Source: Anolis carolinensis
Taxonomy: Eukaryota
DNA length: 64,000 nucleotides
Assembly: GCF_035594765.1 (NCBI RefSeq)
Contig: NC_085843.1
Span: forward strand, 243,947,971 to 244,011,970
Direction of reading: 5' to 3'
Shown piece by piece: positions 44,970 to 53,868 of this stretch (positions are counted from its first letter, which is position 1; each line of letters starts with the position of its first letter). A program made the position numbers.

Positions 44970-47900
44970 ATGTATATATATATATATAAACTATGAACAA
45001 ATTCCTATGCAATACACACTGCATATCTTATTTTGAAGTAAAAAAAACCAAAACAGGAATAAATACAGCCTCAATGTTAATCATAATCATAATAAACATA
45101 ATAAAGAGGGTTGGAAGAGACCCCTTGGGCCATTTAGTCCAACCTCCTTCTACCTTTGTGCACCAAAAACACTAGAAAAGCACCCCTTAATAATTAATCA
45201 TTGATTAAATAATAATTAAAATACCATTATAAACAAGCAAAGCTTTGGAAGGCATGCATCAGGTGAGGAAGGAGACGGGAAAGGTGGGCGCGCACCTTCC
45301 TCGGCGGAGGCTTTGATGGCCCGCATGTGGCCTTAGTTTGGGGACCCCTGGCCTAGAGGATATACCATATACAGTAGAGTCTCACTTATCCAACACTCGC
45401 TTATCCAACGTTCTGGATTATCCAACGCATTTTTGTAGTCAATGTTTTCAATACATCATTATATTTTGGTGCTAAATTCGTAAATACAGTAAATACTACA
45501 TACCATTACTGCATATTGAACTACTTTTTCTGTCAAATTGGTTGTATAACATGTTTTGGTGCTTAATTTGTAAAATCATAACCTAATTTGATGTTTAATA
45601 GGCTTTTCCTTAATGCCTCCTTATTATCCAACATATTTGCTTATCCAACATTCTGCCGGCCTGTTTATGTTGGATAAGTGAGACTCTACTGTCGCTATTA
45701 AAGCTTAGAGTATTTTACCATTATAGTTTATACCTATAGTCTAGTACTATACCATATAGTCATTATAGCTTGCATTTACCATCAGCAAAGCCTAGTGTAC
45801 TTTACCAACATAGCTTACATTATTTTACCCTTTAGTTATTATAATTTGTACCTATCCAAATAGTTATTATAGCCAGTACTTTACCACTATAGCCTGCATT
45901 TTCCATCAAAATAGTATCTTATCGCTATAGTTTGGAGTATTTTACCTCAACCATTATAGTATAATGTACTTCATTATAGTTTTGTACTTGGCCATCTTGA
46001 TTCTATATTGTATTAATAACCAAGTGACTTATCACAATTATATTCAAGTATTTTACCTCATTCTATACAAATATAGTCAAGTGTTTATTTTCAGTGTAAC
46101 TAAATTCAATCAACAAACCTCATCTCTGTTATATATTATTTTGATTCACCTTTCAAGAATCCTGACTGAGGTTAACTTTGCCTTTGTCTCAGTAAACTTA
46201 TTTGGTTAACTTTATCCAGTCTCAAGAGTCTTTATTTTAAGAACTGAAGTACATAAGAGGGTATACCGATAGCCACCGGGTAGCCAGACATATAGTTTTC
46301 CTCCCCCCCCCCCCCCGAGTGTGCCATCACACCCAGAATATCAAGGCAAATAATCCACAATATCTTCTTTGAACTGGGTTATCTGAGAACTGGGTTATCT
46401 AACCTGCGAAACATGCACATCCCTTATCAAACATAGCCCTCCATATTCTACCTTATGCTGAACACTATTTGTGATTGTGGCTTATGAGTATATAACTTAC
46501 CAAGTCTACAAATTGTTCCTCACTTGTTTATTTGCTTGACATATGAGCCATGTGGCTATTAATATCGGGTAAGAAATCAAGCAACACCTTGTACAGGTGT
46601 AAACCATTATATGCAGCTAAACTGCATTATATTAATATAATGCCATTTAGCTGCCTTGAACTGCCTCATATGAGTATACACTGATCATATAATGCAGTTT
46701 CAGACTGCATTATATGGCAGTGGAGATGGGGCCTCAGATGTGCACACTTTTAAATGGCTACTGGTACTGTGAATTGCATCCAATTTTGGTTAAGATAACA
46801 AATGTTACAGCCATTTAAAATTTTCCACTGAAAGTGAATAAAAGCTAAAGGTTTTCCCCTGATATCAAGTCCATTCGTATCTGACTCTGGGGTGTGGTGC
46901 TAATCTCCATTTCTAAGCCTAAGAGCCAGCATTGTCTGTAGTCTGCTCCAAGGTCATGTGGCCGGCATGTCTGCATGGAGCTCTGTTACTTTCCTGCCGG
47001 AGCAGTACCTATTGATCTACTCACATTTGCATGTTTTTGAACATGTTAGCTTGGCAGAAGCTGGGGCTAACAGCGGGAGCTCACCCTTCTCCCCAGATCC
47101 GAACCACTGACCTTTTAGTCAACAAGTTCAGCAGCTCAGCGGTTTAACCCACTGTGCCACCAGGGAGTGAGTGGGAAATATAAATCTTTAGATTTCTGAG
47201 TTCCAATTTAGGCTTATAGCCAGAGTTGAAACTTTCTCAAAATTGGCCATAGCCAGAGATCAATTTTCTGAAGTGCTAAGCAGTCTGTACCCAATCTCGT
47301 AGTCAGTGTGCATGCCTCAGAGATTTATGAAATGTACCTATATGAGCAAAATGTTGAAACTGAGTAGATGATTAGGTTTCGACTGGCATTTGAAGTCTGA
47401 CACAGCCCTTTTAAATTAGTGGGCTTCTTTCTAGGGGGCATGTGGAAACCTATATTTAGAAGGCACATGGCCACGTTCACCTCTGAGAGAAACATCTGAC
47501 ACTTTGCTGGAGTCCTGTGAGATTATGGGGAAGGCAAATTGAAGACCAAGTGCCATTTTAAAGCAGGGTTGTACCTTTGCATGAAAACAGCAGTGCTCAC
47601 TCTCTGACAAAAATGATTATTATGTTGACAGACTCATTCCAGGGACTCTTATTTGAGGTCAGGAAATGCTATGATACAAACACTGAGATTAGAAGACTCA
47701 GATGCACCTGATCTTATGTGTGTAATTATTAGTTCAAGTTTAGAACTTGTGTTAAACCCAGTAACCCTATCCCTGTTTCCCTACCTAGTAGGCTTGCTCA
47801 AATAATTCGTTTTCCCCGTTTACCGTTATTGATTCGTTATTTTCGTTTGTTTTGAAGCAATATCGAACCTTGGTTGTCCACACGCCTGGATATCGCGGTT

Positions 47901-50900: not shown

Positions 50901-53868
50901 AGAGTTGCATATCCCATACTTCCCTGTACAAAATACAACTCCTTTTGGGGAAAGAAGGGGGTGCCTTTGTCCCTTCCCCAGTCTCAAACACAAGCGGGGC
51001 TGCTTGTGTCTCAGCCAGGGACGCTTCCTGATAATCCTAAGCCAAGTTTGGGAAAGAGTTGCATATCCCATACTTCCCTGTACAAAATACAACTCCTTTT
51101 GGGGAAAGAAGGGGGTGCCTTTGTCCCTTCCCCAGTCTCAAACACAAGCGGGGCTGCTTGTGTCTCAGCCGGGGACGCTTCCTGATAATCCTAAGCCAAG
51201 TTTGGGAAAGAGTTGCATATCCCATACTTCCCTGTACAAAATACAACTCCTTTTGGGGAAAGAAGGGGGTGCCTTTGTCCCTTCCCCAGTCTCAAACACA
51301 AGCGGGGCTGCTTGTGTCTCAGCCGGGGACGCTTCCTGATAATCCTAAGCCAAGTTTGGGAAAGAGTTGCATATCCCATACTTCCCTGTACAAAATACAA
51401 CTCCTTTTGGGGAAAGAAGGGGGGGTGCCTTTGTCCCTTCCCCAGTCTCAAACACAAGCGGGGCTGCTTGTGTCTCAGCCGGGGACGCTTCCTGATAATC
51501 CTAAGCCAAGTTTGGGAAAGAGTTGCATATCCCATACTTCCCTGTACAAAATACAACTCCTTTTGGGGAAAGAAGGGGGGGTGCCTTTGTCCCTTCCCCA
51601 GTCTCAAACACAAGCGGGGCTGCTTGTGTCTCAGCAGGGGACGCTTCCTGATAATCCTAAGTGTGCTGTGCCAGGACCATCTCCACATTGTATGTGTATG
51701 AGCCCCAATGGCGAAGTGTGTTAAAGCATTGAGCTGCTGAACTTGCAGACCGAAAAGTCCCAGGTTCAAATCCCGGGAGCAGAGTGAGCGCCCGCTGTTA
51801 GCTCCAGCTTCTGCCAACCTAGCAGCTTGAAAACATGCCAATGTGAGTAGATGAATAGGTACCGCTCTGGCGGGAAGGTAATGGCACTCCATGTAGTCAT
51901 GCCGGCCACATGACCTTGGAGGTGTCTATGGACAACACTGGCTGTTGGGCTTAGAAATGGAGGTGAGCACAACCCCCAGAGTCAGACATGACTGAACTTA
52001 ACGTCAAGGGATACCTTTACACACACACATATGCAGGGACTACACCAATTTAACAAAGTTTCTGCCACAAAAACAAAGTTTCTGAAGTAGAGCAATGACT
52101 TTCACAGTAAAGACAACCCAATTTAACAGGAAATAAGACTTTCAAACCAGGAACAGATTTCTGCAATTATTAAAAAATGGTTTATTATAAAAGCTATGAA
52201 AATTTGCCAAAAATCAGAGGATAAGGGAAACGTTCCACATTTTGGTGAGCTATCAGTGTTAAATGTGTTCTACCACTGTACCAAGTTTGAAGAAGATCAC
52301 TCAAAAAATGAGGGCGTCCGCCATTAACGAATTAATTTCGAAAATAACGAATTTTCGTTAATTTCGAAAAATTTTGGGGGCCAAATTCGTTATTAGCAAC
52401 AAAAACGAAAAACTGCCCCCTCTAGTTTTGAAACGAGTTTAGAATCAAATTTTTCATGGATCGATCAAGCCTACTACCTAGTTGTTCAAATGTTGAATGC
52501 GACAATTCTTATAATCTTCAATGATCAAGAATGGTAAAAAGTGCAGCCCACAATATCCGGAAGACCAAAGATTCCCCATTTCCACATTAATGATTTCATA
52601 TAGATCCTATTGGTGCCTGCTGTGCATGACTACCAGCCCCACAGCTCCAGCTCTATGATTTGCAGGCAGCATCCTTATCCACCTATTGTCATAACTCTGT
52701 CTTTATAGATATGTATTCATTCCTTTCTTTTTTCCATTCAAGGCATTGAACCAAAGGATTCACAGTTGGCCTTCCATCCAAGCAATGATCAGACCTAGAC
52801 TTGCTTAGTCTGGGCATAGTTGTTGCATTATATACTTTCTCTGTCTCACTGTCTGCCTGAGGCAGAAGATTTCATTATACTTTTCTTCATCCTGTATCAT
52901 ACATTGTCAGAATCACTGATCAAACACATTTGCTAGAGAGCTGCTCACCACAATGCAGTCATTTGATGAAGGAAATATTAGCTCTTACAAATGAGAAAAA
53001 ACCTGGTGTACGTTAGCACAGAAGGAGGCTTGATTTTTATTAAAGTACACCGAAAATCAAAACATGTCTTGTCAGTAAGCTCTTGGATTTAAAATGATGG
53101 CTCAATAGATTTTGGCCATGTCACTCTGCTCAGTCTGTTTCATGTCCAACATAATAAGGGATGACACTTTGGGGAAAAATACATCTATTTTAAAATAAAG
53201 GTATGAAAAGATAGAATGAAAGAATGGCAGAGAGCGGGAGTAGAAACAAATACTTATTATACTTATTTTTTGAACACCTGGATTACTTAGTAACATGTAA
53301 CACTTAGTTAACTTTTTTTTTCATGTCAAGAGCAACCGGAGTTGCTTCTGGAGTGAGAGAATTGGCCGTCTGCAAGGACATTGCCCAGAGGACGCCTGGG
53401 TGTTTTGATGTTTTTACCATCCTTGTGGGAGGCTTCTCTCTCATGTCCCTGCATGGAGCTGGAGCTGATAGAGGGAGCTCATCCGCACTCTCCCCGGGTG
53501 GGATTCAAACCTGGCAGCTTTCAGGTCAGCAACCCAACCTTCACGTCACGAAGCTTTTATCCCCTAGGCCACCGGAGGCTCCACTTAGTTAACTGATTAG
53601 CTACCAGAAATGTGTGCAATTTTTTTTCCCTTTGTTTCCTTCGTGCTATCATTTGTTCCGGAAATTTGTCTACACAAAACAAATGACAACATTTTCGTAG
53701 GAAATGATAGGTGAGATGAAAATGAAAGCCACACAGTCACCGTGCTTGCTTTCGTTTTCCTTTCATTTCACCCCCATAACAATAAGCAGGTACTGACAGA
53801 GGGCTGCTTTCCCATTACAGCTGATGTGTACCAATGGATGTTAATAATATATATATATATATATATAT

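What the first reader, a model, noticed from the sequence alone, without database searches (positions are those of the whole stretch)
47789..52473. Intact DNA transposon carrying a homogeneous 154-bp satellite array
Seen in sequence: perfect 8-bp TSD, TIRs and retained CpGs indicate a young insertion; about 3.3 kb of its 4.7 kb is 21 nearly identical monomers close to nucleosome-core length. Established: transposon-internal tandem repeats seed satellites in other taxa (for example Tetris and DINE-TR1 in Drosophila virilis). Inference: this is a mobile satellite or VNTR carrier that may disperse arrays genome-wide or mark the birth of a lizard satellite.
Basis: partly seen in the sequence, partly recalled or inferred. 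Interest (0 to 1): 0.7.

Follow-up and report, generated by a model that had tools for sequence, protein, structure and literature searches.

The report
Anole hobo-type transposon carrying repeat array
This is a defective copy of an already catalogued, recently active lizard "hobo" jumping gene that carries 21 tandem copies of a 154-base unit; transposons carrying such arrays are well known in other animals.

Summary
At 47789-52473 lies a 4,685-bp element flanked by a perfect 8-bp duplication (CTACCTAG). It contains a 154-bp tandem array at 48391-51661: 21 full units plus 33 bp, 98.5% mean identity, 70% of the element.

The element is not a new transposon. Its 11-bp ends (TAGGCTTGCTC and TAGGCTTGATC) match the published terminal repeat of hobo_AC (TAGGCTTGMTC). 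Its target duplication matches the published pattern NTRNNYAN/NTANNTAN. hobo_AC is a young hAT family of Anolis carolinensis, described in 2010, with 15 defective subfamilies known to pick up foreign DNA and old SINE fragments.

The element has no transposase gene, has CpG-rich ends with clustered TTCGTT motifs, and holds a 321-bp SINE, as described for one hobo-N group.

The array was not mentioned in the parts of that paper I read. The unit is unrelated to the SINE and so to the known anole SINE-derived satellite. Whether other family members carry it, and whether free arrays exist, could not be tested: no lizard genome was available.

Verdict: a real, ordinary member of a known family carrying array cargo I did not find described. 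The "mobile satellite carrier" idea is plausible but untested. Interest is low to moderate.

The parts
47781..47788 (.). Left copy of the 8-bp target-site duplication, CTACCTAG
   Evidence: Identical to 52474-52481. Matches the published hobo_AC TSD patterns NTRNNYAN and NTANNTAN 8 of 8 (patterns from PMC3014272 Table 1).
47789..47799 (+). 5' terminal inverted repeat, TAGGCTTGCTC
   Evidence: Exact match to the published hobo_AC TIR consensus TAGGCTTGMTC. One of only 2 exact matches in the window; 0 of 100 shuffles reach 2.
47800..48390 (+). 5' arm. It has a CpG-rich subterminal region with four TTCGTT motifs (47806, 47833, 47842, 47942), then a CCAAT/GC-box-like stretch and a T-rich stretch up to the array. 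It has no coding capacity.
   Evidence: CpG o/e is 0.88 for 47789-48390, against 0.22 for the window. ORFs give no Pfam match, and there are no copies elsewhere in the window. The promoter-like reading of the CCAAT/GC-box stretch is my reading of the sequence, not a test.
48391..51661 (+). Tandem array of a 154-bp unit: 21 full units plus a 33-bp partial unit
   Evidence: TRF gives period 154, 21.2 copies, 98% matches, score 6316. The alignment shows mean pairwise identity 98.5% and 12 distinct unit sequences among 21. Non-CpG substitutions are 9 of 3108 cells, CpG-site differences 12 of 126 cells, and 4 of 21 units have a 2-bp insertion (GG in 3, GA in 1) at a G run. It is not coding, has no Rfam match, and its fold is unexceptional at z -1.5.
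51662..51699 (+). Short unique spacer between the array and the SINE
   Evidence: No significant similarity to the unit: 228 of 300 shuffles score at least as well.
51700..52020 (+). Embedded SINE copy of 321 bp with no clear target duplication of its own
   Evidence: BLAST finds 6 near-full-length copies elsewhere in the window at 80-89% identity, plus a partial copy at 58830-58961. In the alignment with flanks, other copies show TSDs and this one does not. Group A hobo-N elements are reported to carry a 333-bp 'ACA SINE' (PMC3014272). ARAGORN and Rfam do not call it.
52021..52462 (+). 3' arm, an AT-rich unique sequence. The subterminal region around 52320-52410 carries five TTCGTT/AACGAA motifs and short palindromes.
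   Evidence: Motifs lie at 52326, 52346, 52354, 52386 and 52404. The ORF at 52127-52327 has no Pfam match.
52463..52473 (-). 3' terminal inverted repeat, TAGGCTTGATC on the minus strand
   Evidence: The second of the 2 exact matches to TAGGCTTGMTC in the window.
52474..52481 (.). Right copy of the 8-bp target-site duplication, CTACCTAG

Best explanation
The element is a nonautonomous (transposase-less) hAT transposon of the hobo_AC family of Anolis lizards. It inserted by cut-and-paste transposition, using transposase supplied in trans by an autonomous hobo_AC copy elsewhere in the genome.

The transposase would recognise the 11-bp terminal repeats. By analogy with other hAT elements, it probably also recognises the clustered TTCGTT motifs just inside them (inference). 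Staggered cutting of the target produced the 8-bp duplication CTACCTAG.

The interior is 'filler' of the kind this family is known to pick up: an old SINE fragment and a 154-bp sequence now present as 21 tandem copies.

The array most likely grew by unequal exchange, replication slippage, or slippage during the gap repair that follows transposon excision (inference). It grew recently, because the units differ at only 0.3% of non-CpG positions. I take the present copy number to be specific to this copy and probably variable. The unit itself probably belongs to the subfamily's internal sequence (inference, untested).

Shown here: the boundaries, the family assignment by TIR and TSD, the absence of coding capacity, the array anatomy, and the embedded SINE.

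Inferred: trans-mobilisation, the role of the subterminal motifs, how the array expanded, and whether it expanded before or after this insertion.
For: - The TIRs match the published hobo_AC consensus 11 of 11 at both ends, and the TSD matches NTRNNYAN/NTANNTAN 8 of 8 (consensus strings from PMC3014272 Table 1).
- These are the only two exact TIR matches in 64 kb, in inverted orientation at the TSD-flanked ends; 0 of 100 shuffles give 2.
- 9 of 19 window-wide TTCGTT/AACGAA hexamers lie in the two terminal 200-bp stretches, and none lies in the element's interior.
- There is no ORF with a Pfam match in the arms or the array.
- The paper reports that hobo_AC mobilises at least 15 nonautonomous families, 0.2-1.2% from consensus. 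These incorporate extraneous DNA, including a 333-bp SINE in group A.
- A 321-bp SINE with no clear TSD of its own sits in the 3' arm.
- Other Anolis carolinensis hAT TIRs (CAGGGGTCCYCAAACT) occur in the same window, which fits the host.
- Array homogeneity and CpG-biased decay are shown.
Against: - The family assignment rests on 11-bp TIRs and the TSD pattern only. I could not compare the 150-300 bp subterminal regions with the hobo-N consensus sequences: the figure is not held, supplements are closed, and no Repbase or Dfam was on hand.
- At 4,685 bp the element is longer than the complete nonautonomous families in the paper's Table 1, whose lengths run 1.85-3.4 kb (the text says 1.3-3.4 kb). 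hobo-N13_AC is listed only as >3.5 kb, without complete elements.
- The text I read (Table 1 and passages, the second part of the hAT section, and part 1 of 2 of the Discussion) never mentions a tandem array. A word search of its main text found 'satellite' 0 times and 'tandem' once in another sense.
- The 5' TIR differs at one base from the group A consensus (10 of 11), although the embedded SINE is reported as a group A marker.
- Nothing in the window tells whether the array predates the insertion.
- The host species is inferred, not identified.
Confidence: 0.85

Rival explanations
1. The array belongs to the master copy of a hobo-N subfamily, so many dispersed copies carry multi-unit arrays of the same 154-bp unit. 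The element then acts as a vehicle spreading a nascent satellite through the genome, possibly with free long arrays elsewhere.
For: - hobo_AC elements tolerate large cargo and are recently active (PMC3014272 Discussion).
- Transposon-borne arrays with variable copy number are a documented route to satellites. Examples are miDNA4 and Xstir in Xenopus, CgHINE in oyster, and DINE-TR1 and Tetris in Drosophila (reviews PMC12628747 and PMC9659126, passages).
- The array has sharp edges with no degenerate units, and the first unit is the most divergent, as in arrays that have undergone some homogenisation.
- hobo-N13_AC is listed as >3.5 kb with no complete copy in the assembly. This could reflect an unassemblable interior, which is speculation on my part.
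Against: - There is no second copy of the unit or of either arm anywhere in the 64-kb window.
- The parts of the family description I read mention no array.
- hobo-N13's TIR, deduced in the paper from its 3' end only, matches this element's 3' end at only 10 of 11.
- No predicted protein resembles the array translation: 0 hits at E<=0.001 among proteins of 82-263 residues. This is weak evidence.
- I found no paper linking Anolis with a 154-bp repeat (1 paper, on a skink genome).
Confidence: 0.3
2. The array is a purely local event. A single-copy stretch of filler inside this one inserted copy expanded in place after insertion, as an ordinary minisatellite or VNTR that happens to lie in a transposon. 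No other element carries more than one unit.
For: - The units are extremely similar: non-CpG differences are 9 of 3108 cells. This is no older than the family's own divergence of 0.2-1.2%.
- Without the array the element is 1,414 bp, within the 1.3-3.4 kb range given in the paper's text.
- The described families have no reported array.
Against: - Nothing in the window dates the expansion relative to the insertion.
- Shared variants in non-adjacent units (T at column 18, counted from 0, in units 2, 6 and 15; the GG insertion in units 6, 20 and 21) show several rounds of block duplication. These could equally have happened in a master copy.
Confidence: 0.4
3. The array size is an assembly artefact. 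The true locus has far fewer or far more units, and the assembler mis-stacked near-identical reads.
For: - The window comes from a gapped assembly, with an N run at 10325-10460.
- Arrays of 98.5% identical 154-bp units over 3.3 kb are hard to assemble from short or Sanger reads (general knowledge).
- Several units are identical: 4 equal the consensus, and 6 carry only the G-to-A variant.
Against: - 12 distinct unit sequences occur among the 21, in a non-periodic order. Simple over-replication of one unit would not produce this, so at least about a dozen units are probably real.
- Both junctions with unique sequence are clean.
Confidence: 0.2
4. The array is a SINE-derived satellite of the kind already described in the green anole (sSat1Aca, from the Squam1/Sauria SINE), sitting next to its parent SINE.
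For: - A SINE lies 38 bp downstream of the array.
- sSat1Aca has a similar unit length of 145 nt and is abundant in Anolis carolinensis (PMC10702118, passages).
Against: - The unit has no similarity to the adjacent SINE or to any other SINE copy in the window. BLAST with word size 7 and E<=1 gave only two 21-23 bp chance-level hits outside the element; by their coordinates neither falls within a SINE copy.
- The unit length (154 against 145 nt) and homogeneity (98.5% against 81%) also differ.
- That the window's SINE is Squam1 is my recollection, not tested.
Confidence: 0.03

Closest known systems
hobo_AC and its nonautonomous families hobo-N1_AC to hobo-N15_AC of Anolis carolinensis (Novick et al. 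2010, PMC3014272)
   Same: - The 11-bp TIR is identical (TAGGCTTGMTC).
- The TSD length and pattern are the same (NTRNNYAN/NTANNTAN).
- There is no transposase gene.
- The interior is made of foreign filler, including a SINE of about 320-330 bp.
- The element looks young.
   Different: - At 4,685 bp it is longer than the complete nonautonomous families in the paper's Table 1 (1.85-3.4 kb).
- 70% of it is a 154-bp tandem array that the parts of the paper I read do not mention.
- The subfamily could not be assigned, because the TIRs fit the autonomous and N14 consensus best while the SINE is reported as a group A marker.
Tandem-repeat-carrying nonautonomous DNA transposons: miDNA4 (Tc1/mariner MITE) and Xstir in Xenopus, CgHINE Helentrons in oyster, DINE-TR1 (Helitron) and Tetris (foldback) in Drosophila
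   Same: A mobile element with intact termini encloses a tandem array of satellite-like units of roughly 150 bp. The array copy number can change, and the element can in principle disperse it (reviews PMC12628747 and PMC9659126).
   Different: - This element belongs to a different superfamily (hAT) and host (a squamate reptile).
- In those systems many copies with variable unit number, and often free satellite arrays, have been documented. Here only one copy has been seen.
sSat1Aca, the SINE-derived 145-nt satellite of Anolis carolinensis (PMC10702118)
   Same: The likely host is the same, the unit length is similar, and both are tandem repeats associated with an interspersed element.
   Different: The unit here has no sequence similarity to the SINE and is far more homogeneous (98.5% against 81%).
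Drosophila hobo with its internal TPE repeat polymorphism
   Same: It is a hobo-clade hAT element whose copies differ in the number of an internal tandem repeat.
   Different: The Drosophila repeat is a 9-bp coding repeat inside the transposase region of autonomous elements. Here the repeat is a 154-bp non-coding unit in a defective element.

Membership tests
hAT superfamily (nonautonomous member) | 8-bp target-site duplication | tested here: met
   CTACCTAG lies on both sides, 8 of 8 identical.
hAT superfamily (nonautonomous member) | Short terminal inverted repeats of about 10-25 bp | tested here: met
   The TIR is 11 bp, with 10 of 11 bases complementary between the ends.
hobo_AC-mobilised nonautonomous elements (hobo-N_AC) | TIR sequence TAGGCTTGMTC or its group variants | tested here: met
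   Both ends match the hobo_AC and N14 consensus 11 of 11. Group A matches 10/11 (5' end) and 11/11 (3' end). Group B matches 9/11 and 10/11. These are the only 2 exact matches in the window, and 0 of 100 shuffles give 2.
hobo_AC-mobilised nonautonomous elements (hobo-N_AC) | TSD pattern NTRNNYAN or NTANNTAN | tested here: met
   8 of 8 for both patterns. The patterns of other Anolis hAT families fit worse, at 4 to 6 of 8.
hobo_AC-mobilised nonautonomous elements (hobo-N_AC) | Similarity of about 150 bp at the 5' end and 300 bp at the 3' end to the family consensus (the basis of the paper's Fig. 3) | not testable with these tools
Figures are not held, supplements are closed, and there is no Repbase, Dfam or lizard genome.
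hobo_AC-mobilised nonautonomous elements (hobo-N_AC) | Embedded old TE fragments as filler (group A: 333-bp ACA SINE and a Penelope fragment) | tested here: inconclusive
   A 321-bp SINE with no clear TSD of its own is present at 51700-52020. Its identity with the 'ACA SINE' and the presence of any Penelope fragment could not be tested.
hobo_AC-mobilised nonautonomous elements (hobo-N_AC) | Length 1.3-3.4 kb as described | tested here: not met
   The element is 4,685 bp, or 1,414 bp without the array. Length describes the families known in 2010. It is not a mechanistic requirement: the paper lists hobo-N13_AC as >3.5 kb and autonomous copies of 9-15 kb.
Autonomous hobo_AC | Own hAT transposase open reading frame | tested here: not met
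   No ORF in the element has a Pfam match. The element is therefore nonautonomous.
Transposon-borne satellite carriers (miDNA4, CgHINE, DINE-TR1, Tetris kind) | A tandem array enclosed between intact transposon termini | tested here: met
   The array at 48391-51661 lies inside the TIR/TSD-bounded element.
Transposon-borne satellite carriers (miDNA4, CgHINE, DINE-TR1, Tetris kind) | Many dispersed copies carrying the same unit in variable number | not testable with these tools
   There are no other copies in the window.
Transposon-borne satellite carriers (miDNA4, CgHINE, DINE-TR1, Tetris kind) | Free long arrays of the same unit outside elements (a true satellite) | not testable with these tools
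   There are none in the window. The genome-wide status is unknown.
SINE-derived satellite sSat1Aca | Unit homologous to the Squam1 SINE body | tested here: not met
   BLAST of the unit against the window, which holds the adjacent SINE and 7 other full or partial copies, gave no SINE hit. That these SINEs are Squam1 is my recollection.

The most novel reading that the evidence does not exclude
A subfamily of hobo_AC nonautonomous elements carries the 154-bp array in its master copy and has recently scattered multi-unit arrays across the anole genome. Unit number would change at each excision and repair. This would be the first documented hAT-borne, still-mobile proto-satellite in an amniote, and it would be polymorphic among living anoles.
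Probability: 0.3. Interest if true: 0.5.

Novelty: new member of a known kind. Interest (0 to 1): 0.3.

Why it matters
If only this copy carries the array, it is a routine VNTR inside a catalogued transposon. It then matters mainly for repeat annotation and as a likely length-polymorphic marker.

If the array travels with the family, anoles would offer a vertebrate system with a recently active transposon in which to watch a satellite being seeded. Unit number per insertion, insertion polymorphism among populations, and the step from transposon-bound to free arrays could all be measured. So far this has been worked out mostly in Drosophila, bivalves and Xenopus.

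Tried and rejected
- **Chance TSD/TIR.** An 8+8 structure alone occurs about 0.3 times per random window, so I did not rely on it. The match to the published TIR and the motif clustering settle the boundaries.
- **Paralogous empty site.** The joined flanks (600 bp on each side) match nothing else in the window.
- **Other copies of the unit or arms in the window.** None were found.
- **SINE origin of the unit.** Rejected.
- **Residual degenerate units at the array edges or a microhomology origin.** Nothing was significant: on the left, 20 of 300 shuffles score as well; on the right, 228 of 300.
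- **RNA gene in the element.** Rfam gave 0 matches at E<=1 over 47000-53500, and ARAGORN gave 0.
- **Structured unit.** The DNA fold gives z -1.5, and 16 of 200 shuffles fold as well.
- **Coding capacity.**
  - Pfam gave 0 families at E<=0.01 for 29 ORFs that I picked from the 151 ORFs of at least 70 aa and.
  - For 5 array ORFs scanned at E<=1, 4 had no match and 1 had only matches below the curated cut-offs.
  - The array translation found no protein at E<=0.001 among proteins of 82-263 residues.
- **Gene context.** The ORF at 55844-56245 found nothing among longer proteins, so I cannot say whether the element lies in a gene.
- **Literature.** 'hobo_AC' occurs in one paper only. Searches combining Anolis, hAT, tandem repeat and satellite terms gave no description of this array.
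- **Not used.**
  - Genome contigs holds only bacteria and archaea.
  - The phage, plasmid and E. coli collections are irrelevant here.
  - The supplements of Novick et al., which may hold the consensus sequences, are closed and I did not see them.

Full report
**1. What is there**

The window has an element at 47789-52473 (4,685 bp). It is bounded by two identical copies of CTACCTAG, at 47781-47788 and 52474-52481. Its ends are TAGGCTTGCTC and, read from the other strand, TAGGCTTGATC: 8 perfect bases and 10 of 11 complementary.

Tandem Repeats Finder reports one array inside it, at 48391-51661, with period 154, 21.2 copies and 98% matches. It is the only long-period array of this kind in the whole window.

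I cut the array into units and aligned them.
- There are 21 full units, 17 of 154 bp and 4 of 156 bp, plus a 33-bp partial unit.
- Mean pairwise identity is 98.5%.
- 4 of 21 units equal the consensus, and there are 12 distinct unit sequences.
- The array makes up 3,271 of 4,685 bp.

**2. Is it more than chance?**

An 8-bp direct repeat next to an 8-bp inverted repeat is not rare on its own. The same structure, spaced 200-8000 bp apart, occurs twice in the real window and 32 times in 100 Markov-1 random windows. Three independent features secure the boundaries.
- **Subterminal motifs.** The hexamer TTCGTT/AACGAA occurs 19 times in the window. Nine of these lie within 200 bp of the two ends, and none lies in the element's interior.
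- **CpG content.** Observed/expected CpG is 0.88 in the 5' arm and 0.59 in the 3' arm, against 0.22 for the window and 0.27 for each 5-kb flank.
- **Match to a published family.** The ends match a published transposon family exactly, as described next.

**3. Which transposon**

Novick et al. 2010 (PMC3014272) catalogue the DNA transposons of Anolis carolinensis. I read Table 1 and passages, the second part of the hAT section, and part 1 of 2 of the Discussion.

The paper describes the family hobo_AC as follows.
- It has an 11-bp TIR, TAGGCTTGMTC, and an 8-bp TSD.
- It has 15 nonautonomous families, hobo-N1 to N15. Their TSD pattern is NTRNNYAN or NTANNTAN.
- The text gives their lengths as 1.3-3.4 kb. 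Table 1 lists 1.85-3.4 kb for complete families, and hobo-N13 as >3.5 kb.
- Their divergence from consensus is 0.2-1.2%.

Both ends of the element here match that TIR 11 of 11, and the TSD matches both patterns 8 of 8. The consensus has exactly two exact matches in the 64-kb window, at 47789 (+) and 52463-52473 (-). The shuffle expectation is 0.06, and 0 of 100 shuffles give two.

The group A consensus fits 10/11 (5' end) and 11/11 (3' end). Group B fits 9/11 and 10/11. N14 fits 11/11 at both ends.

The paper's TIR for another Anolis hAT group, CAGGGGTCCYCAAACT, also occurs in the window. It bounds a 753-bp element with a perfect TSD at 43531-44283. This supports an anole origin for the window. 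The species itself is inferred, not identified.

**4. Anatomy**

- **No transposase.** Stop-to-stop ORFs across the element give nothing with a Pfam match. The array translation has no relatives among predicted proteins of 82-263 residues.
- **No RNA gene.** Rfam gives no match at E<=1 and ARAGORN finds no tRNA.
- **5' arm (47789-48390).** It is CpG-rich. Read by eye, it contains a CCAAT box and a GC-box-like stretch. I did not test these, and they may be the remains of the parent element's promoter.
- **3' arm.** It holds a 321-bp SINE at 51700-52020.
  - Six near-full-length copies (80-89% identity) and one partial copy lie elsewhere in the window.
  - Other copies show their own target duplications, while this one shows no clear one.
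  - The paper states that old TE fragments inside hobo elements came in with captured genomic DNA, and that ancestral group A elements carried a 333-bp 'ACA SINE'. That fits what is seen here.
  - My impression that this is the Sauria/Squam1 or ACA SINE is recollection and was not tested.

**5. The array**

- **Variation.** The consensus unit has 3 CpGs. Of the variation among the 21 full units, 12 of 126 CpG-site cells differ from consensus, against 9 of 3108 non-CpG cells. Four units carry a 2-bp insertion at a G run, GG in three and GA in one. The main variant, CCGG to CCAG, is in 10 of 21 units.
- **Growth.** Variants shared by non-adjacent units show that the array grew by repeated duplication of blocks rather than in one step. 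Examples are the T variant in units 2, 6 and 15, and the GG insertion in units 6, 20 and 21. The first unit is the most divergent.
- **Edges.** The edges are sharp. Neither flank shows significant residual similarity to the unit.
- **Origin of the unit.** The unit is unrelated to the SINE or to anything else in the window. It is therefore not the 145-nt SINE-derived satellite sSat1Aca described for the green anole (PMC10702118, passages).
- **Structure.** It does not fold unusually, at z -1.5.
- **Unit length.** That 154 bp is near nucleosome size is a numerical observation I could not test.

**6. How it most likely works**

The element is a defective hobo_AC derivative moved by transposase from an autonomous copy elsewhere. 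hAT cut-and-paste transposition explains the TIRs and the 8-bp TSD (established for the superfamily).

By analogy with subterminal repeats of other hAT elements, the TTCGTT clusters are likely transposase-binding sites (inference).

The array is cargo. It most likely expanded by unequal exchange, replication slippage, or template slippage during double-strand-gap repair after excision (inference).

Its very low non-CpG diversity is of the same order as the family's reported divergence. The expansion is therefore recent, but it cannot be placed before or after this insertion.

**7. What remains open**

Testing it needs other copies.
- The window has none.
- No lizard genome was on hand (one search shows only the window on disk).
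- The open sequence collections cover only prokaryotes, phages, plasmids and E. coli.
- The paper's supplements, which may hold the consensus sequences, are closed.

The array size itself could be mis-assembled, since the window has an assembly gap at 10325-10460, which I left untouched. However, 12 distinct unit sequences in non-periodic order argue that at least about a dozen units are real.

**8. Comparison with what is known**

Transposons enclosing satellite-like arrays are well documented. Reviews PMC12628747 and PMC9659126 (passages) describe miDNA4 and Xstir in Xenopus, CgHINE in oyster, and DINE-TR1 and Tetris in Drosophila.

In the word searches of those two reviews I found no lizard example and no hAT example of this kind. 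'hAT' occurs 0 times in one review and twice in the other.

'hobo_AC' occurs in a single paper of the library. Searches combining Anolis, hAT, tandem repeat, satellite and '154 bp' found no description of this array.

The transposon family is therefore already known, and the kind of structure is already known. I did not find this particular cargo described, within the limits of the searched library.

**9. Verdict**

The feature is real. It is a new member of a known kind, and interest is about 0.3. It would rise to about 0.5 if a genome-wide survey showed that the family carries the array.

Noticed in passing
window 43523-44291: A 753-bp nonautonomous hAT element lies at 43531-44283. It has a perfect 8-bp TSD (CCTTAAAG) and TIRs CAGGGGTCCTCAAACT / CAGGGGTCCCCAAACT. 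These match the hAT-HT2/HT3N2-type TIR CAGGGGTCCYCAAACT of Anolis carolinensis, and the TSD fits the pattern NYYTARRN by my reading.
   Followed up: partly
window 44457-45350 and 13345-13360: A second pair of the same TIR bounds 894 bp right next to the first element. Its flanking 8-mers are imperfect (ATATAGAG and GCCTAGAG). A lone TIR copy with one mismatch lies at 13345-13360.
   Followed up: partly
window 28513-28823 (+) and 28851-29160 (-): Two SINE copies lie head to head, 27 bp apart, at 79% identity to each other. Together they form a long imperfect palindrome of about 650 bp.
   Followed up: no
window 9876-10197, 12807-13121, 22489-22790, 46846-47159, 58830-58961: The same SINE of about 320 bp recurs through the window at 80-89% identity to the copy inside the element. 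One copy ends about 130 bp before the assembly gap at 10325-10460, which I left untouched.
   Followed up: partly
window 20389-20555 and 24525-24691: A 167-bp stretch is repeated at 98.8% identity, with more distant copies near 25453 and 41479-41603. Other interspersed repeat families recur around 4130, 16295, 34630 and 38033, and around 2616, 53324 and 60541. None were identified.
   Followed up: no
window 56325-56447: A 61-bp unit is repeated twice at 91% identity. It lies inside an open frame (56249-56629) that has no Pfam match.
   Followed up: no
window 47892-47912: A CpG-rich near-palindrome, ATCGCGGTT-TCG-AACCGCGAT (9-bp arms with a 3-bp centre), lies in the 5' subterminal region of the element. 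It may be a protein-binding site; this was not tested.
   Followed up: no
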